From the human T2T-CHM13v2.0 reference genome, Homo sapiens, in NCBI RefSeq assembly GCF_009914755.1, contig NC_060934.1: a stretch of 64,000 bases of DNA, one strand, 5' to 3'. Made by a program: the position numbers and the translations under genes. Below are positions 1,067-59,392 of the stretch, piece by piece (position 1 is the first letter of the stretch; the number at the start of each line of letters is the position of its first letter). The notes beneath the pieces were generated by a model. The model saw only the letters and a program-made list of their open reading frames with translations, did no database searches and was not told where the DNA came from.

Positions 1067-3446
1067 TATATTAGTCTGTTCTCATGCTGCTACTAAAGAC
1101 ATATCCAAGACTGGGTAATTGATAAAGGAAAGAGGTTTAATGGACTCAGTTTCACATGACTGAGGAGGCCTCACAATCATGGTAGAAGGCAAAGGAGGAG
1201 AAAAGGCACATCTTACATGGTGGCAGGCAAGAGTCGTGTGCAGGGGAACTGCCCTTTATAAAACCAACAGATTTCATGATACTTATTTACTATCATGAGA
1301 ACAGCACAGGAAAACTCACTGCCATAGTTCAATTACCTCCCACTGGGTCCCTCTCACAACACGTGGGGATTATGGGAGCTACATTTCAACATGAGATTTG
1401 GGTGGGGACACAGCCAAACCATATCATTCCTCCCTTGGCCCCTCCCAAATCTCATGTCCTCACATTTCAAGACCAATCATGCTTTCCCAACAGTCCCCCA
1501 AAGTCTTAACTCATTTCAACATTTACTCAAAAGTCCACAGTCCAAAAGTCTTATCTGAGACAAGGCAAGTCCCTTCTGCCTATGAGCCTGTAAAATCAAA
1601 AGCAAGTTAGTTACTTCCTAGATACAGTGGGGTTACACACATTGGGTAAATACACCTGTTCCAAATGGGAGAAATTGGCCAAAATGAAGGGGCTACAGAC
1701 CCCATGCAAGTCTGAAATTTAGTGGTGCAGTCAAATTTTAAAACTCCAAAATGATCTCCTTTGACTCCATGTCTGAAGTCCAGGTCACACTGATGCAAGT
1801 GATAGGTTCCCATGGTCTTGGGCAACTCTGCCCCTGTGATTTTGCAGGATACAGCCCCCTTCCTGGCTGCTTTCATGGGCTGGCATTGAATACCTACAGC
1901 TTTTACAGGCACACAGTACAAGCTGTTGATGGATCTACCATTCTTGGGGCTGGAGGACAGTGGCCTTCTCCTCACAGCTCCACTAGGCACTGCCCCAGTG
2001 GGTACACTGTGTGGGGGCTCCCACCCCATATTTCCATTCCACACTGCCCTAACAGAGTTTCTCCATGAAGGCTCCACCCCTGCAGCACACCTCTGCCTGG
2101 ACATTCCAGCATTTCCATAAAGCCTCTGAAATCTAGATGGAGGTTCCCAAACCTCAGTTCTTGAATTCTGTGCTCCCACAGACCCAACACCATGTGTAAG
2201 CTGCCAAGGCTTGGGGCTTGCACCCTCTGAAGCAACGGTCTGAGCTGTATGTTGGCCACTTTTAGCCACAACTGAGACACAGGACACCAAGTCCCAAGAC
2301 TGCACAAACAGCAAGGCCCTGGGCCCAGCCCATGACACCATTTTTTCCTCCTAGGCCTCTGGGCCTGTGATGGGAGGGGCTGACTTGAAGACCTCTGACA
2401 TGCCCTGGAGACATTTTCCCCATTGTCTTGGCATTACTATTTGGCTCCTCATTATTTATGCAAATTTCTGCATCAGGCTTGAATTTCTCCCCAGAAAATG
2501 GGTTTTTCTTTTCTATCACATCATCAGGCTGCAAATTCTCTGAGCTTTTATGCTCTGCTTCCCTTTTGAATATAAGTTTCAATTCCAAGCCATATCTTCA
2601 TGAATGAATGAAATTAAATGCTTTTGAGAGCACCCAAGTCACATCTTGAATGCTTTGGTGCTTAGAAATTTTTTCCACCAGATACCTTAAATCTTCTCTC
2701 TCAAGTTCAAAGTTCCACAGATCCTAGGGCAGGGGCAAAATGCCAGCAGTCTCCTTGCATAGCAAGAGTGACCTTTACTTCAGTTCCCAACAAGTTCCTC
2801 ATTTTCATCTGAGACACCTCAGCCTGAACTTTATTGTCCATATCACTATCAGCATTTTGGTCAAAGCCATTCAACAAGTCTCTAGGAAGTTCCAAACTTT
2901 CCCACATCTTCCTGTCTTCTGAGCTCTCCAAGTCTCTGGGAAGTTCACAACTTTCCCACATTTTCCTATCTTCCTCTGAGCCCTCCAAAGTGTTCCAACC
3001 TCTGCCTGTTACCCAGTTCCAAAGTTGCTTCCTCATTTTTGGGTATCTTTACAGCAGCACCTCATTCTATTGGTACAAATTTACTGTATTAGTCCATTTT
3101 CATACTGCTATGAAGAAATACCCAAGACTAAGTAATTTAGAAAGGAAAGAGGTTTAATGAACTCACAGTTCCACATGGCTGGGGAGGCCTTACAATCATG
3201 GTGGAAGGCAAAGAAGGAGGAAAGACGTGTCTTATATGATGGCAGGCAAGAGCACATGTGCAGGAAAACTGCCTTTTATAAAATTATCAGCTCTTGTGAG
3301 AGTTACTCACTACCATGAGAACAGCATGGGAAAATTCCTCCCCATGATTCAATTACCTCCCACTGGGTCCCTCCCACAACATGTGGAGATTATAGGAGCT
3401 ACAGTTCAACCTGAGATTTGGGTGGGGCCACAGCCAAACCATATCA
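1067..3446 (-). mobile_element. Full-length THE1 (ERVL-MaLR) element: LTR 1067-1426, internal 1427-3084, LTR 3085-3446
   Basis: Two ~360-bp direct repeats (t[a/g]tattagtc...cagccaaaccatatca), the reverse complement of the THE1 LTR consensus, flank a ~1.66-kb THE1-int. 5-bp TSD CTTAC at 1062-1066 and 3447-3451. Confidence 0.95.
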
Positions 3447-3449
3447 CTT

Positions 3450-4075
3450 ACTAAGTTCTAGCATTGGTCTAGGGGATTTACATAATTTATCTCAATTATT
3501 ATTCATGGCAGCTTTTGGAGGGAGGAGGTAGCTTTGCTTGCTTTAGAGAGGAAAAATATTGGGGTCTAGGGAAGTAAAATAACTTGTTAAATTAACAGAG
3601 CCTGGAGGCGAAAGAGCTGAGACTTGAAACTAGATGTGTTTTATATCTTTGTTTGTTCATTTGCTCCATCATTCCTCACTGACTTACTATGTGCCAGAAA
3701 GTGGGGACATGGCAGTGCATGAGAAAGCAAGATTTTGCCCTTATGAACTTTACATTGTAGTGAGGAGGACAGACAATATCAGTCTTCACAGATATTGTCT
3801 TCACAGTCAGGTTATGTAAGACCTTATAAGCTAATGTAAGGAGTTTGCATTTTGTTCTGAGTATGATGGGAAATCAGAATGTTTTCAGCCAAGAGAGGTA
3901 CCGTCTGGCTTCCATTTTCAAAAGATACACTATACCTGTTTTGTGAGTGGTTGACTCTTGGGAGACAAAAGACGAGCAGGGGAAGTTGTTGGAAGGCAAC
4001 TGCCATGAAAGTGAGAGATGACAGTAGCATGGACTAGGTTGGTGCTGAGGAAGTGGTAAGAAGTGGTGAGATTCA
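3450..4075 (-). mobile_element. Old MIR and L2 fragments
   Basis: MIR-like (ttatctcaatt...gagctgagacttgaaactag) and L2-like (ttactatgtgccag...aaggagtttgcattttgttctgag...gttttcagc) degenerate motifs; boundaries approximate. Confidence 0.6.
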
Positions 4076-35144: not shown

Positions 35145-35950
35145 CCACAAGACCCCAATTAATTACAAAGCAAAAATAGTAACTTTTTACTAGAGACACC
35201 TCACAATCATCACCTTAATACCTATCAGAGTAAACATCACCATTAATGGGGAAAATTGCATCAAATGCCTTCTAATATGATGCATTGAGAAAAACATGAC
35301 ATCCTTGAGTCTTGCCCATAGTGCAAAACTGAATCAAATCATGAAGAAATATCAGACAAGGCCAGATTGTCCACTTGTACTCTCAAAAATGTCAATGTCA
35401 TAAAACACACAAAAAAAGACCAAGAAACAGTTCCAGGTTAAGAAAATATAAGCAAATACAATAATTGATGTGGGACTTTTTTTTCCTATAAGGATTTAAC
35501 TGGGACAATTGGCAAAGTCTGAGTAAAGTTTTTTGTTTAGATAATGGTATTGCTTCAATATTAATTTTCTAGCTGTGAAAATTGTATTGTGGTTATCTAA
35601 GAATGCTCACCGTTTTAGGAAATGCACTGATGTATTTAGGCATGAAGGAATATCATGTTCACACTTAACCTCAGACTCGGGGAAAAGTGCATGTGTGTGT
35701 ATATATATACACACACACATACATGTGTGTATACATATATATACACACACATACATGTGTGTATATATATACACACACATACATGTGTGTATACATACAC
35801 ACACACACACACAGAGAGAGAGAGAAAGTAAAAGCAAATATGGTAAAATGTTAACACTTGGCTAATCCGGGTAAAGGATTTAGGAATTTTTTGTACTATT
35901 CCTGCAATTTCACGTTAAATCTGAAGTTATTTCAAAATAAAAAAATTAAA
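35145..35950 (+). mobile_element. Old L1M (MC/ME-like) 3' UTR
   Basis: aattaattacaaagcaaaaatagtaacttt...tttttgtactattcctgcaattt...tctgaagttatttcaaaataaaaaa. Confidence 0.75.
35690..35826. repeat. Compound (TG)/(TA)/(CA)/(GA) repeat
   Basis: Repeating atacatgtgtgtatatatatacacacac-type units followed by (CA)n(GA)n. Confidence 0.9.
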
Positions 35951-46489: not shown

Positions 46490-46904
46490 ACTATGAGGGC
46501 TACGTCAAATTGATTGGACCATGGAGTGCCCAGACATTTGGTCAAACATTATTCTGGGTGTGTCTGTGAGGATGTTGTTAGCTGAGAATAGCATTTGAAT
46601 TAGCAGAATGAATGAAGCAATTTGCCCTCCTTAATGTGGGTGGGCTTGATCTAATCAAGTGTAGACCTGAATAAAACAAAAAGGACTGAGTAAGAGGGAA
46701 CTCTTCCTGACTGACTGCTTGAGTTGAGAGATCAGTCTTCTTCCCTGGAACTGGAACTTATACCATTAGCTCTCCTGGTTCCCAGGCCTTCAGACTCAGA
46801 CAGAACTGTATCACTGACTCTCCTGGATCTCTAGCTTGGGGACTGCCAAGCTTGGGACTTCTCACCTTTCATAACGGCATGAGCCAATTCCTTGTAATAA
46901 ATCT

Positions 46905-46948
<44 letters not shown>

Positions 46949-46989
46949 TCCTATTGGTTCTATTTCTTTAAAGAACCCTGACTAATACA
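46490..46989 (+). mobile_element. MLT2 (ERV-L) solo LTR, MLT2D-like, with (CA)n at 46909-46944
   Basis: gtgcccagacatttggtcaaacattattctgggtgtgtctgtgagg...ctcctattggttctatttctttaaagaaccctgactaataca. Confidence 0.88.
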
Positions 46990-47709
46990 CCCACAAACCA
47001 CGTTTAAACAGATGAGCCTGCTCCCTCTTTCCTAGGAGACAGAAATTGGGATCATGATTTAATGTTCCCACTGAGACTTGGAATTCTTGATTAACCAAGG
47101 CAAAGGCCCAAGAGACAGTGATTGCAGCAGAATTGAGAGTCCAGTGGCATATAGCTGAGTGGCCAGCTATAGAGGAACCCAGTAGCCAAGCATCCAGTGT
47201 CCAGGGGATGCCAATGCCAGTGCCAATAGTGATGGCATCAGAAAAAACTCTGGCAGGCTCTTGGCCACAGCTTGTCTCCATTGATTCCAAACTTTCTGGC
47301 AATTCTACTTAAATTTTTGTTTTTCTACAGGCTATAATAATTCACTAAGTAACATGAACAGGGAAATGACAAGATTAGTGCCATACGTCTATGTTCATAG
47401 AATGTTGGTCATTTCTTTTGGGAACAACTCCTCCTTCAACACTCACAAAATGGGATGCTTTTGAAGAGCTCTAAATTTAGATTGCGTTTTCCTCTGTGCT
47501 ATTTTTGATTTGGGCCAGCTCTCTGATGTGAAGTGTCAGTGCATCCCAAGGTACAAATCAAGTGGCATGATGAAAAGATCCCCGCTCCAAAATGTCCATC
47601 TTTCTCCCTGACCACAGACTCTCCTTCTTACCTGAAAATTCCAACTATTAGTAGTTTCCATATGTTATGAACACACCAGGTCCCTTTGACTCTCTCTGCC
47701 CTACAGTGG

Positions 47710-47940
47710 CAATGCATAGTTGCCCTAGGGTCAGATAGATGCAGACCTTCATACTAGCTCTACTGTGGTCTATCTGTGTGATGTTGGGCAACTTGATTAC
47801 ACTTGAAGCCACAGTTTTTCTTCCCTGTAAAATGGCACAATAGTTGTATTGAACTCACAGAGGTTTTATGAGGTTTAGGTGAGATGACGCTTGTAGAGAA
47901 CTTCTCACAGTGCCTAGCATATAGACATTATAAGTACTAG
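47710..47940 (+). mobile_element. MIR
   Basis: tgtgtgatgttgggcaacttgattacacttgaagccacagtttttcttccctgtaaaatgg...cacagtgcctagcatatag. Confidence 0.75.
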
Positions 47941-48339
47941 TAGTAGATATGATATTAATATCTTGGAAATCCAAAGGACAGGAGTGTGACAGGCTTCAGT
48001 TGGTTGGAAGTGGTGCTGCAGAATCAAGTCCAACTTGAACCAGAAGCATTTTAAGAAAATCATAGGACATAGGAAACTTTTTATTTATAGGTTCAATCTC
48101 CCATGTTCTACATTAAATAACCTTTTATGCTGTAAAGTATTGAGAAGATTTTTATGACTGTGCTTTTAAAATTAATATTAATAACTTATTGAACTTACAT
48201 TGCTTGTGGTATCTTAGAAATCACTAGGCTTATATTGAAATCCTTTTGAAGTAATAGTCAAATTTATACATTCTTTCCAAGGCAATAACATTTTTATAAA
48301 TATTAATGTTTTGGTGAGGCTTTGTATAAGCAAAGGAAG

Positions 48340-49265
48340 TTTTCTCCAATTTTTATTATGAAATTTTTTTGACAAATATACTGATAAAATAGTTCAATTT
48401 ACATCTTTATGTCCTCCACCTGGATTTACCAGTTGTTTATATTTTGCCATATTTGTAGTATATTTATACATACCAACAAATGTGAATATATTTTTCTTTT
48501 TTGGCTGAAATATTTGAAACTTGGCAAGTATCATAATGCATCATCCCTAAATCATCAGCAGGCATCTCCTACGTAATCATAGTCCCTTTATTACACTTAA
48601 GAAAATTAATGAAAATTCTTCAAATATCTCTCATATCTGGTCCATTTTCAGATGTCTTTTGCAGCTGATTTCTTGAACCAGGATTAATGACATTTTAGGA
48701 TTGTACTTGGCATGACTCTTTTTATCTTTTAATATAAAACCATTTTTCTCTTCATGACATTGACTTGCTCAATCTTTTAAGATGCTTCCATTCTGGGTTT
48801 GTTTGTTTCTTCATGGTGATGGCCTCCATCTCCTTTATATATCTTATCAACTGGTAGTTAGGTCTAGATCGTTGACTAAGTTCAGTTTCAACATTTCTGG
48901 AATACTACATCACAGTGATGTGAATTTCATATCGTATCACAGTAGACAAGGCTCATTGCAGGTTGTATCACAGACCAATGGCTTGACTACTTGCAAGCAT
49001 GGTAACCCCATCTCTCTCCATTGTAAAGGTACATTTTCTCCTTTTGCAATCATTAAGTAATGGGCAGTGGGGGGTAGCAGGAGTCAGTACTTTGGAAAAA
49101 ATATGAAAAAATATACTGAGGTTATCCTAATAATCTTTTATCTAATGATTGTAGCATTCATGGATGATCCTTGCCTGAATTGTTTATTACATTAGGGAAT
49201 CCAAAAGGGTGATCTTCTGTTATCATTCCCTCTACATTTATTAGTTGGTATTATTTCTCTCTTTT
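48340..49265 (-). mobile_element. Old L1M (MC4/5-like) 3' fragment
   Basis: ttgtttatattttgccatatttg...cattgtaaaggtacattttctccttttgcaatc...ggatgatccttgcctgaat. Confidence 0.65.
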
Positions 49266-49560
49266 TCTTTTTACATCTAAAAATAGGTTCATAAGTTGAA
49301 CAATATAAAACCACTAAATTTAATAAGAAGTAAAACTGACATAATGTGATAGAATGCTACATTTTATATTTGTAGATTTATACATTACATTAATTTAACA
49401 GGTAAAGCCAACACATTTTCTTATGCATATTTAGCTCTTGAAAAATTCATAGCCTCTGTGGCACTACAGTGCCTAGTGGATAACATAGCTTTGATTTGAA
49501 CTATTTCTGAGCACACAGTCAGCATCAAATAGTTCTGATTGTGTTGTTCAGCAATGAGTG

Positions 49561-49909
49561 AGCATGTCAGCAGGTGAGGGAAAAATGTGTGGTTAAGAAA
49601 AACAATCTGCCCAAAATCCAAGGACCCAGAGGTCAGTGTGATAGCACTGGGGGGACAGGGAAGGGGTGTGAGATGGTGTGGGGCACAGGAAGACCACAGA
49701 CAAATATGTGTCTCAGTGTTATTTCCTGTGACCCACTATGATTTAAATCATATTTGGGACACATACTTGTCTGTGGTCTTCCTGTGCCCCACACCGTCTC
49801 ACACCCCTTCCCTGTCCCCCCAGTGCTATCACACTGACCTCTGGGTCCTTGGATTTTGGGCAGATTGTTTTTCTTAACCACACATTTTTTCCTCACCTGC
49901 TGACATGCT
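49561..49909. repeat. Long near-perfect inverted repeat (155-bp arms, 39-nt spacer)
   Basis: 49561-49715 is the reverse complement of 49755-49909 with 4 substitutions and no indels; paired coordinates sum to 99470. Confidence 0.98.
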
Positions 49910-51532
49910 ATCGATAAGGATTTTGAATGTTTATTCTGGAAAAAAGGCTGCTAGCATTCCTTTCAACGATTTACTTCTAAACTTGAAAGATCATTCACTT
50001 ATTAATTTCTTCACTTATTCCCTTATGAAAACTGACTGCACACACCTACTGTGTTCTGGGCCTAGAGAAGACTCTCTCTCCTCTGGGAAGGAGAAACACA
50101 CCTAAGCATTCATAGCGACATCAGCATGCTCCTGTCAATGCTCATGTCCACAGAAACCTACTAATTTGGGGTTATAATTCAACTCAGTCTCTCTCAAATA
50201 TGTGTATTTGCTTTTTCATGCTAATGTGAATGGTGTTTGGGTTTTCATTTTCTTTCCTGAGTTGTTCTTAACGGTCTCCAGTGATGAAGAGAATTATAAG
50301 GGCGAATTTTATAACTACTGTCACATTGAAAAAAATGTTTTTATTCAGACTGCATGGTCTCTTTTGAAGCAATGACATCATTAAAAGTTTTTTTTATTTG
50401 TCCCCAATTATTTTTTAGCAGAATTTTTGGACCTATAGTGATTAAGAGCATGATTTAGCTTCAAAACATCCACATGTATGGAGCTTGGTCCACATCTCTC
50501 TTGATCTGTAGTGTCTTTATGTGTAAAATAGAAATTAAAATATCTATTCCACAGAGCTGCTGAAAAAGCTATATATACAGCATATGCCTCAATGAGCCTA
50601 GTGCTAAATAAATGGTAGCTATGATAGCTGTGTTATTCATAACAGTGTTTGACACCTAAAACTGACATCATGTGCATTTATTTTCTATTAGCAAGCTGTT
50701 AAAGTAAACCCTGAGTAATTTCCCTTGCTTTGGTTCCTTCTTACTTCACTTTGGCACTGCATATTCATCAAGCTCATTGCTCCCCTTCATCATTTCCCCC
50801 TTGAAAATTTTCAGTTGCTTATGGCATAAACAGCACATTCCCAAGGCCGGTTTTCTCAGACCTCTGGCAATCAAAGTGGATTGTTTACTCTCTTCTCTAA
50901 ACTCTCTGTATAATTCTCTTGCATGCTCATCAGACCATCCCCAGACTCTTGTAGTAGCCTATATGTCCTACGTATTTCTGGGAGTTCCCCTGAAGATCAG
51001 TAGGAACTCACAAACACATCTGGTCTGTCACCATGTAGCTTTGGCAGTGTGTTTCTTTATCAGTCCTACATTGATGAGTACCATGGAGTCCCTCACTGTC
51101 ATCCTTTGCTCCTTCTACTTGATGAAGGAACAAGGCTCTGTGGCTCGTGCCTCCACTACGCTCCTATTGTGGACTTTCCAGCACCATATTTGCCACAGCT
51201 GAAACATGGTAGGTTATCTCTGCAAAATGGGGATGAATGTCTCTCTCTATTTTCAGTTAGTCTTAAGCCTCCAGCACCTATGAGGCTTTTAGCTTTTGTT
51301 TCCTTAAAGCTTTCCCATCTTCATCACTGCAGGACTCAGTCCAAAGTTCTTGAAGGCTGGGCCAGAAGATAAATTGTCCTGGCAAACACCATGCTGTACT
51401 CCACACCACACCTTTTTCTGACAGCTGCGGTTTTGTTACTGATTAAACCTTTGTGGGCCTGCTACTTTTCCCATTAGAATGTGTCATTGTCCAACAAGAT
51501 ACTAAGGGCCACTTAAAAAATAAAACCTCTCT

Positions 51533-51660
51533 GGCCGGATGCAGGGGCTCACGCCTGTGATCCCAGCACTTTGGGAGGCTGAGGCGAGAGGATTGCTTGA
51601 GGCCAGGAGTTTGAGATCAGCCTGGGCAATAAAGCGAGACCCCACCTCTACAAAAAATAC
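51533..51660 (+). mobile_element. Alu left monomer (FLAM/AluJ)
   Basis: ggccggatgcaggggctcacgcctgtgatcccagcactttgggagg...ccccacctctacaaaaaatac. Confidence 0.9.
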
Positions 51661-52005
51661 AGATTAAATTTTTTTTAAACTTTTTATTACACTAGTTTGC
51701 CTGACATTTCCAGACATGCCTTAAAAACAGCTGTAGAGATGATGAAGTCTCCTTCTGAGATCTCTCCTCTTTGTTTAACTCATATGAACCTGACTGTATT
51801 ATAAGCTTCCTTTGGACAGAGCTCATGTCCACAGTGCCTAGAACATAGTAAGTTCTCAATAAACTTTTATTAAATAGATGAATAAATTAATTAAAATAAT
51901 AATACTAATATTTATTGAGTACTAGATGCAATTTCTTGTGTTTTATATTCATTAGCTTGTTTAATCATTATTAAAACTCTGTAAAGAGGTATTTTTATTC
52001 CAGTA

Positions 52006-52475
52006 TGTGACCCAATACCTTCCTTTTGCTCCTGTAATTCTGATCTCAGCCCTTCTCCTTCTCTCTGTTGCAGGAGGTGGGCCCATGTGAACTACCACAG
52101 TGGGGCTTCTTACCCTCTGGTTTGTGTGGGTTTGGCTATTGGGAGGCCAGGAGGTCAGAGGGAGAGAGGAGAGAGGAATAGGGGCTGATCATTTCCTGGC
52201 CTCTTCATTGTGATATTGCCTGGGTCAGGTTGGGACCTTCTCTGAAAGTAACAGGTCTTCTCAAGATGGCTTTATTCTCAGGATCTCTCATGTTCCCTCC
52301 CTTTTCCCTTTACATTAGGAGTGGTAACAGCCCGACACTACCACACTCAGGCTCCTTCACCACATATAGTGCTGTCCTTTACACTTACACCCCACTTTAG
52401 TAGATAATCAGTTTGGTAACCGCTTCTCTAATTATATTATTTTAAGAAAGTCATCCTTATCTCTCTGGGACTCTG
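52006..52475 (+). mobile_element. LTR33-like ERVL LTR inserted into a MIR
   Basis: ccctctggtttgtgtgggtttggctattgggaggccaggaggtcagagggagagaggagagagg; antisense MIR pieces on both sides (51905-52003 and ~52490-52600). Confidence 0.65.
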
Positions 52476-52634
52476 TGTGGAAAGCATGTTGCTAATGAGG
52501 TAACTGAGGCCCACAGAGATTAAGAACATTCCTTAAGATCACTATACTAAAGGTGCCAATGTGGGAGTTTGTATCCAAGCCCATGGCTTTAATGACCACA
52601 TCATGCACACATGAAACTGCATTTGAATGCTGGG

Positions 52635-52885
52635 TGGCAGTGATGCACAGCGGATAAGCATATTACCATTGCAGTCACAAAGATCTGGGCTTCAAAATGG
52701 GCTCCACAACCTAGTTACAGTATAACATTGGACAAATGACTCTAGCTCTTTAAGATTCAGTTCCTAAATCTGTGAAATGGGGATTCTACCTACCTTGGAA
52801 TTTTTATAAGATTTAATTTTATGTTAATTTATGTAGAGTGCTACCATAGTGTTTTGTACCTAATAAAGACTTAATAGTTATCATA
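52635..52885 (+). mobile_element. MIR
   Basis: gatctgggcttcaaaatgggctccacaacctag...ttggacaaatgact...tcagttcctaaatctgtgaaatgggg. Confidence 0.72.
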
Positions 52886-53919
52886 AAAGCTATTCTGAAG
52901 GGGATTATTTGGAACTATGAGAGAACACAAGAGAAGTTTCATATGTGGTACCTTTAGTTAAGATGCTTATAGTAGTAACAGAAAATAATCAAATACTGGA
53001 TGGTTAGAACAGACATTGGAATTAAAGAGTTCTGGGGAAAGGGAAGAAACTCGTGGTATAAAGCAGATAGGTCAGGATTCATTTTGTTTCTTCACCTCTT
53101 TGGTGCATTTATTTTCTTGCCTTGGCTCTGGCAATCCTGCTGAGAGTGCAAGCATCCCTCAGGCAATGTGGTCTGAGTGAACTAACAGACATTAGCAGCC
53201 TTCATCATGAGCCTTCTTTCTGGCTGTTAATTCTTGTGGTGATAACACTTCCACTTGGTGGGGGAACAAGGCCACTGTAGTGGCCTGCCTAGCTGTGCTA
53301 CTGGGATTAGATTGCCACAGGGCTGCACTCTTAAAAACAAAGCCTACTTTTTCAATGAGGACAATTATGCAGTATTCCCATAATGGCTTCGCAGCTTGAA
53401 TTAAAATTGTTTAAAAAGTTGCCAGTACATGAAAAATATGTCTTACCTGTGAACTCTGTAGAGAGATGGACAATGCAAAGTAAATAGTGAATACTTTTTT
53501 ATGGGCAAAAATATTCCAGGGGTACATCTAATTTATGGCAAGGCTTGCAAATGTCTGACATGTTTATACTTCCCACCCCCTATTAAAATCAGAGATAGCC
53601 TTAGAATCTCTAAACACAGCACTGAAAAATGGCATCATTTACTTGATTAAAGTTAGTACAAAAGATAAGAGCTTTGCTAGCACTGTTGTTCTATGAAGAG
53701 GAGGATCCTACCTTTCCATGTCATATCACTGTCCAGTGTTTACCACTGAGTATAAAACCAAATAGAACTGGTTTCATTTTATTGGCTGAATTATTATATA
53801 ATGTTATTGACAATATTGTATAAGTAAGCCAGAATTTGTATGTGGAAATGTAAATGTAGACTATTAGCTACATCCTGAATTATGATTTTTAAAATCCTTA
53901 TTTGTGTTGTCTATAGGAA

Positions 53920-54724
<805 letters not shown>

Positions 54725-55564: not shown

Positions 55565-56020
55565 CATATTATATATAATATATATTATATATAAATATAA
55601 TATATATTATAATATAAATATATATAATATAATATAATATATAACATTATATTAATTATATATATTATAATATATAATTATATATTATAATTATATTATA
55701 TAATATATAATATATAATTATATATAATATATATGATTTATAATATAATTATAATATATAATATATATATTATATATTATAATTATATTATATATCTAAA
55801 TATAATATATATTTATATTTTATAAATATATAATATATAATATAATATATATAATATATTATATTATATATTATAATTATATTATATATCTAAATATAAT
55901 ATATATTTATATTTTATAAATATATAATATATAATATAATATATATAATATATAATATATTATATATTATATATGTATTTCACCTCTGCATTATATATAT
56001 ATTTTATATATACATATATA
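55565..56020. repeat. ~450-bp AT-rich (TA/TAA) tract with 94-bp internal tandem duplication
   Basis: Almost pure A/T; the landmark atatctaaatataatatatatttatattttataaat recurs with 94-bp period (ctaaa at 55796 and 55890). Confidence 0.93.

Positions 56021-56079: not shown

Positions 56080-56406
<327 letters not shown>

Positions 56407-59333: not shown

Positions 59334-59392
<59 letters not shown>

What the first reader, a model, noticed from the sequence alone, without database searches (positions are those of the whole stretch)
49561..49909. 349-bp near-perfect palindrome in apparently unique sequence
Seen: the 155-bp arms pair at 151/155 positions with no indels around a 39-nt loop. The flanks (gagtg| and |atcga) show no TSD, and I do not recognise the arms as a MITE or an Alu. 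Established: inverted repeats this long and this identical with short spacers are unstable, extrude hairpins or cruciforms, and are rare outside transposons. Inference: either a recent fold-back inverted duplication, possibly lineage-specific or polymorphic, or an older structure kept homogeneous by arm-to-arm gene conversion. It could be a rearrangement hotspot or a hairpin-RNA locus.
Basis: partly seen in the sequence, partly recalled or inferred. Interest (0 to 1): 0.85.

Follow-up and report, generated by a model that had tools for sequence, protein, structure and literature searches.

The report
Single-copy inverted duplication near PRKG1
A 155-base stretch of unique human DNA sits next to its own mirror-image copy 20 kb upstream of PRKG1, most likely because DNA copying once switched strands; it is a real but rather ordinary by-product of a known mutation process.

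Summary
Arms 49561-49715 and 49755-49909 pair at 151/155 with no indels around a 39-nt spacer. As single-stranded DNA it folds at -202 kcal/mol, z = -35.

The arm is single-copy in the 3.1-Gb assembly. Four queries, two of them spanning the outer junctions, found only the two arms even at E<=10. The same search found 71-88% identical old repeats 300 bp away. There is no target-site duplication, and no Rfam family reaches its threshold. A MITE, an Alu pair and a known miRNA are therefore not supported.

Best reading: a local inverted duplication, most likely one replication template switch or fold-back. Four later transitions, one at a CpG, give 2.6% divergence, roughly 13 My (3.5-33) at 1e-9 per site per year.

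The spacer carries a perfect 16-bp palindrome and a 13/14 copy of an arm segment, so the centre has a more complex history.

Which arm is derived, whether it is polymorphic and whether it is transcribed could not be tested: no primate, pangenome or RNA data are available here. Published work suggests a 39-nt spacer makes it fairly stable. It is a large, clean member of a known kind, of modest interest.

The parts
49561..49715 (.). Left arm of the inverted repeat (155 nt, GC 0.50, purine-rich on the + strand)
   Evidence: 151/155 to the reverse complement of the right arm; GC; single-copy apart from its partner.
49716..49754 (.). 39-nt asymmetric spacer (GC 0.31, like the flanks)
   Evidence: Not self-complementary about the centre of the large repeat (49735).
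49755..49909 (.). Right arm of the inverted repeat (155 nt, GC 0.52); keeps the one CpG (at 49796-49797) that reads TpG in the left arm
49737..49752 (.). Perfect 16-bp palindrome nested off-centre inside the spacer
   Evidence: Only 7 perfect palindromes with arms >=8 lie in complex sequence of the 64-kb window (43 hits in all; the other 36 lie in three AT/TG-rich simple tracts). The chance of one in a given 39-nt spacer is about 0.002 (my arithmetic).
49727..49763 (.). Secondary quasi-palindrome centred at about 49745. It joins a 9-mer of the spacer (49727-49735) to the first 9 nt of the right arm (49755-49763, 8/9). The same 9 nt also pair with the inner end of the left arm (49707-49715, 8/9).
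   Evidence: searches (self-match 49727-49763, 84% over 38 nt; 8/9 match) and the side hairpin in the folds.
49723..49736 (.). Spacer segment that is a 13/14 direct copy of right-arm 49779-49792 (and so inverted relative to left-arm 49678-49691)
   Evidence: 38 of 2000 shuffled spacers score as well, so this is suggestive only.
49649..49683 (+). G-rich run (four G3+ tracts, one 13-nt loop), mirrored on the - strand at 49787-49821. It is G-quadruplex-like only under a relaxed definition.
   Evidence: absent at maximum loop 7 or 12, found at maximum loop 15.

Best explanation
This is a local inverted duplication of single-copy intergenic DNA. One arm is the original sequence and the other is its reverse-complement copy, laid down next to it. 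The most likely cause is a single template switch during replication or repair synthesis: the growing strand folded back on itself, or jumped to the opposite strand, copied about 150 nt backwards, and returned to its template. The imperfect 9-12-nt complementarity at the inner ends of the arms is a plausible priming site. The 39-nt spacer is the stretch between the two switch points. After the event the arms picked up four ordinary transitions, one of them a CpG-to-TpG change. Today the locus is a hairpin- or cruciform-capable non-B DNA motif with no demonstrated function. Its 39-nt asymmetric spacer probably keeps it stable enough to persist. Shown: the structure, its uniqueness, the lack of transposon hallmarks and the mismatch pattern. 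Inferred: the template-switch mechanism, the priming site, the age, neutrality and stability.
For: (1) Arms match 151/155 with no indels, as expected of one copying event. (2) The arm exists nowhere else in 3.1 Gb. Four queries, including two 425-nt queries across the outer junctions, return only self and the partner arm at E<=10, so the only available source of one arm is the other. The same tool found 35 old repeat copies at 71-88% identity in the left flank, so its sensitivity is adequate. (3) No TSD and no outward extension. (4) All four differences are transitions. One is CG in the right arm against TG in the left, the usual direction of decay after a duplication. (5) Two of the four mismatches lie in the innermost 13 nt (P = 0.038, post hoc). 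That fits a pre-existing imperfect short inverted repeat that primed the switch. (6) The centre carries further inverted and direct copies: a perfect 16-bp palindrome, a quasi-palindrome at 49727-49763 and a 13/14 arm copy. Local template switching leaves footprints of this kind. (7) Passages read in PMC5453318, PMC10710096 and bioRxiv 10.1101/2021.11.26.470150 describe template switching as a frequent human and primate mutation process that creates perfect hairpins in one step. They report 53,666 putative events in genic regions, 31,007 of which form new stems, and a longest event of 318 bp.
Against: No outgroup or second human haplotype could be examined, so neither the ancestral one-arm state nor the direction of copying is shown. 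At 155 nt the copy is far out in the reported size range. The great majority of template-switch events are 10 bp or shorter, and the longest in complex sequence among the gnomAD cases was 90 bp (10.1101/2021.11.26.470150, passages). There is no microhomology exactly at the inner junction and at most 1 nt at the outer one (my reading). Both arms are GC-richer (0.50/0.52) than spacer and flanks (0.31-0.36), which would also fit insertion of a ready-made hairpin; however, 6.3% of 155-nt windows in the 64 kb are as GC-rich. The evidence on mismatch clustering and spacer copies is post hoc and weak (P = 0.038; 38 of 2000 shuffles).
Confidence: 0.6

Rival explanations
1. The palindrome was made by break repair rather than by a replicative switch-and-return. 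A double-strand break was resected, the 3' end snapped back on a short inverted repeat and was extended. Alternatively, an initially tighter palindrome broke at its centre and was rejoined with templated filler, which left the present 39-nt asymmetric spacer as a stabilising scar.
For: The spacer looks composite. It holds a 13/14 copy of an arm segment and a perfect 16-bp snap-back-like palindrome. Junction microhomology is 0-1 nt (reading), as at end-joined palindrome junctions in MCF-7 cells (0-7 bp; PMC4057610, passages). The same paper raises secondary events that lengthen a spacer and stabilise a palindrome.
Against: Fold-back repair of a broken chromosome normally gives large duplications with terminal deletions or dicentrics, not a 155-nt interstitial copy (PMC3907307, seen only as a search listing and start of abstract). 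The spacer's similarity to the arm is weak (38/2000 shuffles). Nothing in the present sequence separates this from a template switch.
Confidence: 0.15
2. An older inverted repeat whose arms are kept alike by arm-to-arm gene conversion or repeated template-switch homogenisation, or by selection on a hairpin RNA (a long-stem precursor of small RNAs or an ADAR substrate) or on a protein-binding cruciform.
For: The stem is near-perfect on either strand as RNA (-327 and -321 kcal/mol). Three of the four mismatches are G:U-compatible on the + strand. Homogenisation of inverted-repeat arms by template switching is described in yeast (PMC8604942, abstract only), and conversion is known for Y-chromosome palindromes (PMC6790999, abstract only).
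Against: No Rfam family reaches its gathering score. The best hits are MIR1858 at 111.8 and 108.8 bits against 137, then MIR2118 and MIR408. They occur on both strands at similar scores, so they reflect a long stem and not homology. No gene or functional element is annotated here (hub table). A 155-bp perfect stem is not the shape of a canonical animal miRNA precursor (established knowledge). Long, nearly perfect dsRNAs are depleted from human transcripts (PMC7006430 and PMC11838218, passages). With transitions about twice as common as transversions, four out of four transitions is unremarkable.
Confidence: 0.1
3. A relic of a palindromic mobile element (MITE-like DNA transposon or other hairpin-shaped insert) that arrived as a unit.
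For: Both arms are GC-richer than spacer and flanks. Almost-complete palindromes occur among human MITEs (recalled, not tested).
Against: Single copy in 3.1 Gb at a sensitivity that detects 71% identical repeats. No TSD of any usual length. Arms 97% alike would be far too young for the human DNA transposons, which are ancient (established knowledge). The stretch is not among those listed as masked in the hub's table, which lists the longest ones down to 174 bp.
Confidence: 0.04
4. An assembly or sequencing fold-back artefact in T2T-CHM13.
For: Palindromic chimeras are a known long-read library artefact (recalled).
Against: An artefact that reads the two strands of one molecule should give identical arms around a symmetric join. 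Here there are four arm differences, including a CpG/TpG pair, and a 39-nt asymmetric spacer with its own internal structure.
Confidence: 0.02

Closest known systems
Template-switch mutations (four-point model of Loytynoja and Goldman) and the hairpins they create, e.g. the primate events behind hsa-mir-4713 and hsa-mir-5690 (PMC5453318, PMC10710096; passages read)
   Same: A reverse-complement copy of immediately adjacent unique sequence, made without indels, giving a perfect stem that then gathers point mutations. Intergenic or intronic, with no transposon hallmarks.
   Different: Size: 155 nt here against 28-83 nt at the miRNA loci, with 10 bp or less typical (the longest reported is 318 bp). 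No evidence of transcription or processing. The ancestral allele has not been seen.
Palindromic AT-rich repeats (PATRR11, PATRR17/NF1, PATRR22), as described in PMC7999016 (passages)
   Same: A near-perfect palindrome several hundred bp long, non-transposon and locus-specific.
   Different: PATRRs are described there as more than 90% AT with little or no spacer, and they are proven translocation hotspots. This one has arms of 50% GC and a 39-nt spacer, and no rearrangement is known.
Closely spaced inverted Alu pairs (PMC7999016, PMC8053094, PMC3300023; passages)
   Same: An inverted repeat with arms of similar length. The rules on spacer length and arm identity measured on Alu pairs are the best available guide to its stability.
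   Different: The arms are single-copy sequence made by local copying, not by two independent insertions. Arm identity (97%) is higher than for most Alu pairs.
Long, highly paired predicted dsRNAs of the human genome (dsRNAscan, PMC11838218; Barak et al., PMC7006430; passages)
   Same: It would be scored as a >96% paired, intergenic, probably untranscribed dsRNA-forming locus. 31,017 of 5,134,754 predictions are >96% paired.
   Different: Most such structures form between repeats, LINEs among the long ones. Non-repetitive ones are sparse, with a median of 75 bp and 75% paired for the unedited class. This one is 155 bp and 97% paired, with a 39-nt loop. I could not check whether that catalogue lists it, because the supplements are closed.

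Membership tests
Template-switch mutation product (short-range inverted duplication) | A reverse-complement copy of sequence lying within a few hundred bases on the same chromosome | tested here: met
   Arms are 39 nt apart and 151/155 complementary. No other source copy exists in the genome.
Template-switch mutation product (short-range inverted duplication) | An ancestral or parental allele lacks the copy, and the difference is explained by one switch-and-return | not testable with these tools
   No primate, GRCh38 or pangenome sequence is held; one search states that the genome has no relatives here.
Template-switch mutation product (short-range inverted duplication) | Copied fragment within the reported size range | tested here: met
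   155 nt. Reported events are mostly 10 bp or shorter, with the longest at 318 bp, and 90 bp the longest in complex sequence among gnomAD clusters (10.1101/2021.11.26.470150, passages). It is within the range but in the far tail.
MITE / palindromic DNA transposon | Many dispersed copies in the genome | tested here: not met
   Only the two arms match at E<=10. Positive control: 35 diverged repeat copies were found for the flank.
MITE / palindromic DNA transposon | Target-site duplication flanking the terminal inverted repeats | tested here: not met
   No direct repeat at the edges.
PATRR-type palindrome | AT content above about 90% and little or no spacer | tested here: not met
   Arms GC 0.50/0.52, spacer 39 nt. 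Definition taken from PMC7999016 (passages).
Known miRNA or other Rfam RNA family | Covariance-model score at or above the family's gathering threshold | tested here: not met
   Best hit MIR1858 at 111.8 bits against 137. Mirror hits on the other strand show it is a match to structure only.
Hairpin-RNA / endo-siRNA locus | Transcription across the repeat and small RNAs or A-to-I editing mapping to the arms | not testable with these tools
   No expression data are available. No gene or functional element is annotated in the hub table.
Conversion-maintained palindrome (sex-chromosome type) | Arm-to-arm identity higher than orthologue divergence, with substitutions shared by both arms across species | not testable with these tools
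   This needs ape orthologues. Arm length (155 nt) is also orders of magnitude below that class (recalled).

The most novel reading that the evidence does not exclude
The locus is a hominoid-born long hairpin that is not inert. One possibility is that it is transcribed from the PRKG1 upstream region as a 155-bp, 97% paired dsRNA, which would be a rare non-repeat substrate for ADAR, Dicer or MDA5. The other is that it is structurally polymorphic in living humans (spacer inversion, centre deletions, one-arm alleles), which would make it a natural non-AT-rich, unique-sequence model for how the spacer protects a palindrome in the human germline.
Probability: 0.07. Interest if true: 0.6.

Novelty: new member of a known kind. 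Interest (0 to 1): 0.3.

Why it matters
If the template-switch reading holds, this is one of the largest clean single-event inverted copies in unique human sequence. It would be a useful test case for three questions: how long a polymerase can run on the wrong strand, whether such hairpins persist because of their spacer, and how often they seed new RNA genes. By itself it changes no concept. The mutation process, the structural class and the stability rules are all already in print.

Tried and rejected
1. Rfam scan of 48500-51000 at E<=10. It gave 10 matches, none at its gathering score. The seven that lie on the palindrome are to miRNA hairpin models; the three best families hit both strands with near-equal scores. 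I rejected them as structure-only. That MIR-prefixed families are plant families is my recall.

2. Search for other copies in the window by sensitive blastn and in the whole assembly. None were found. Caveats stated by the tool: counts are lower bounds and very common words are skipped. The assembly is held as 24 contigs, so the mitochondrial genome is probably not included (my inference).

3. Flank searches. The left flank has old repeats at about 49122-49260 and 48565-48660, none reaching the palindrome. The right flank 1 kb is single-copy. No old repeat therefore runs across a junction to show which arm is original.

4. TSD and outward-extension tests: negative.

5. Tandem repeats and further direct or inverted repeats in 46500-53000: nothing relevant. 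There are three trivial short tandem arrays and one 34-nt pair at 74% identity.

6. G-quadruplex idea as a stalling trigger: present only with a 13-nt loop, so weak.

7. GC and skew continuity to guess the original arm: not decisive.

8. Microhomology at the junctions, read by eye: 0-1 nt, uninformative.

10. Literature for this locus. One search combined PRKG1 and A1CF with palindrome, inverted repeat, hairpin and cruciform (at least 3 of 6 terms). None of the 10 listed papers contained PRKG1 or A1CF. That is one search of one library, not proof of absence.

Full report
**The observation**

The window holds an inverted repeat exactly as described. The arms are 49561-49715 and 49755-49909, 155 nt each, complementary at 151 of 155 positions with no indels, and separated by 39 nt.

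- The four mismatches are all transitions, at 49580/49890, 49674/49796, 49704/49766 and 49713/49757.
- The pairing stops at the stated edges: only 4 of the next 29 outward position pairs match.
- As single-stranded DNA the 349 nt fold into one long hairpin at -202.3 kcal/mol. The mean for 100 dinucleotide-preserving shuffles is -48.5 (sd 4.4), giving z = -35, and no shuffle did as well.
- As RNA either strand folds at about -327 or -321 kcal/mol.
- Among 41 inverted pairs found in the whole window with arms up to 2 kb apart (25 listed), this one is the longest. It is the only one above 83% identity; the others are AT-rich simple sequence or 70-78% identical repeat pairs.

**Is it a repeat-family member?**

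It is not. The held assembly is the window's own 3.1-Gb genome. I made four searches:

- the left arm;
- the arm plus half the spacer, at E<=10;
- two 425-nt queries running from each flank across the outer junction into the spacer, at E<=10.

All four returned only the query itself and the partner arm. The tool warns that counts are lower bounds and that very common words are skipped. However, the 1 kb to the left gave 35 further matches at 71-88% identity, to old interspersed repeats at about 49122-49260 and 48565-48660. That serves as an internal positive control for sensitivity. The 1 kb to the right is single-copy.

There is no target-site duplication. The best word shared by the two 30-nt flanks is 5 nt and lies away from the edges. 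Within 46500-53000 there is no other repeat of 25 nt or more, apart from one 34-nt pair at 74%. A MITE, an inverted Alu pair and any dispersed element are therefore not supported.

**Is it a known RNA?**

It is not. Rfam at E<=10 gave hits on the palindrome only to long-stem miRNA models:

| Family | Bits (+ / - strand) | Gathering score |
|---|---|---|
| MIR1858 | 111.8 / 108.8 | 137 |
| MIR2118 | 59.1 / 54 | 85 |
| MIR408 | 34.6 / 30.5 | 64 |

All are below threshold, and the scores on the two strands are nearly equal. Any long perfect stem would give this result.

**Anatomy of the centre**

The spacer (GC 0.31) resembles the flanks (0.32 and 0.36), whereas the arms are GC 0.50 and 0.52. In the window, 6.3% of 155-nt windows are as GC-rich. 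The spacer is not featureless:

- It holds a perfect 16-bp palindrome at 49737-49752, off the main symmetry centre at 49735. Only seven perfect palindromes with arms of 8 or more lie in complex sequence of the 64 kb. The other 36 of 43 hits are in three simple AT/TG tracts. By my arithmetic, the chance of finding one in a given 39-nt spacer is about 0.002.
- 49723-49736 is a 13/14 direct copy of right-arm 49779-49792. 38 of 2000 shuffled spacers did as well, so this is suggestive only.
- 49727-49763 is a secondary quasi-palindrome (84% over 38 nt). It pairs a 9-mer of the spacer with the first 9 nt of the right arm (8/9). Those same 9 nt pair 8/9 with the inner end of the left arm.
- Two of the four arm mismatches lie in the innermost 13 nt (P = 0.038, post hoc).

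Taken together, the inner ends of the arms may be an older, imperfect short inverted repeat, and the centre may have seen more than one local copying event.

**Age**

Four differences in 155 nt give a Jukes-Cantor distance of 0.026. At 1e-9 substitutions per site per year on each arm this is about 13 My, with a Poisson 95% range of 3.5-33 My. At 0.5e-9 it is 26 My.

One difference is CG in the right arm against TG in the left. That is the usual direction of methyl-CpG decay, so at least this change most likely arose after the copy was made (inference).

Against recalled divergences of about 1.2% for human-chimpanzee and about 3% for human-orangutan, the point estimate suggests an origin in the great-ape stem. 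A human-specific or a catarrhine-wide origin is not excluded. Gene conversion would make the true age older, and raised mutation at hairpins would make it younger.

**Mechanism**

The only possible template for one arm is the other arm, 39 nt away, and the copy has no indels. This is the signature of short-range template switching. The growing strand leaves its template, copies nearby sequence in reverse complement (its own nascent strand or the opposite strand), and returns.

Passages I read in three papers describe this as a common human and primate mutation process that creates whole perfect hairpins in one step, including at sites with no earlier similarity:

- PMC5453318 gives the four-point model and reports 4778 candidate human-chimpanzee events.
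- PMC10710096 reports 53,666 putative events in genic regions, 31,007 of them forming new stems, and fragments of 28-83 nt at miRNA loci.
- bioRxiv 10.1101/2021.11.26.470150 reports 3,049-3,934 patterns per individual, the longest 318 bp. A great majority were 10 bp or shorter, and 90 bp was the longest in complex sequence among the gnomAD clusters.

A 155-nt copy is thus inside the reported range but in its far tail. I cannot tell which arm is derived. No old repeat spans a junction, junction microhomology is 0-1 nt by my reading, and composition gives no clear answer.

A break-repair route remains possible and could explain the composite spacer. It would involve snap-back priming at a short inverted repeat, or breakage at the centre of a tighter palindrome followed by rejoining with templated filler. 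Junctions with 0-7 bp of microhomology, and secondary spacer events, are described for tumour palindromes (PMC4057610, passages).

**What it does now**

Nothing is shown. No gene or functional element is annotated here; the site lies about 20 kb upstream of the PRKG1 start and 85 kb from A1CF (hub table).

As DNA it can form a hairpin when single-stranded. Extrusion of a cruciform from duplex DNA across a 39-nt spacer should be unfavourable. The literature I read agrees that the spacer is the main determinant of fragility:

- In yeast, breaks and fork arrest fall sharply beyond an 8-bp spacer unless RPA is depleted (PMC8053094).
- In primate cells, 320-bp Alu repeats with a 0- or 12-bp spacer stall forks but those with a 52-bp spacer do not (PMC7999016, PMC3300023).
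- Spaced repeats lose the recombination-stimulating effect in human cells (PMC3300023).
- Some studies hold that folding needs spacers under 15 bp, although this is debated (PMC11661062).

This is inference.

If the locus were transcribed, it would give a 155-bp, 97% paired dsRNA. Such structures are rare and depleted from transcripts. 31,017 of 5.13 million predicted human dsRNAs are more than 96% paired, and non-repetitive ones have a median length of 75 bp (PMC11838218; see also PMC7006430).

**Verdict**

This is a real, statistically overwhelming, single-copy inverted duplication. It is best explained by one template-switch or fold-back copying event some millions of years ago, followed by ordinary point mutation. 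It is a large and clean member of a known kind, not a new kind.

The decisive data could not be reached with these tools: ape orthologues, human pangenome haplotypes, Dfam, and RNA or editing data. No paper naming this locus appeared in the one search I made for it.

Noticed in passing
window 55566-55979 (with flanking pair 54398-54520 / 56273-56395): A ~400-bp almost pure A+T tract full of overlapping inverted repeats (70-83% complementary). It includes a perfect 54-bp palindrome at 55739-55792 and a 34-bp one at 55941-55974. In composition and symmetry it resembles palindromic AT-rich repeats more than the reported locus does. It sits between a 123-nt inverted pair at 78% identity, 1.75 kb apart.
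   Followed up: no
window 49122-49260 and 48565-48660: Old interspersed repeat fragments in the left flank. They gave 35 matches elsewhere in the genome at 71-88% identity. The family was not identified because no repeat library is available. They end about 300 bp before the palindrome.
   Followed up: partly
window 35692-35813: A (TG)n(TA)n(CA)n-type simple tract that reads as quasi-palindromes (arms of 58 nt at 74%; perfect 26-bp and 22-bp palindromes). Ordinary microsatellite symmetry.
   Followed up: no
window 59352-59390: A (TA)n run of about 39 bp, which accounts for most of the 'perfect palindromes' counted.
   Followed up: no
window 49649-49683 (+) and 49787-49821 (-): Each arm carries a G-rich run with four G3+ tracts, but one loop is 13 nt, so it counts as a G-quadruplex motif only under a relaxed definition. 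Because of the palindrome, one such run lies on each strand.
   Followed up: partly
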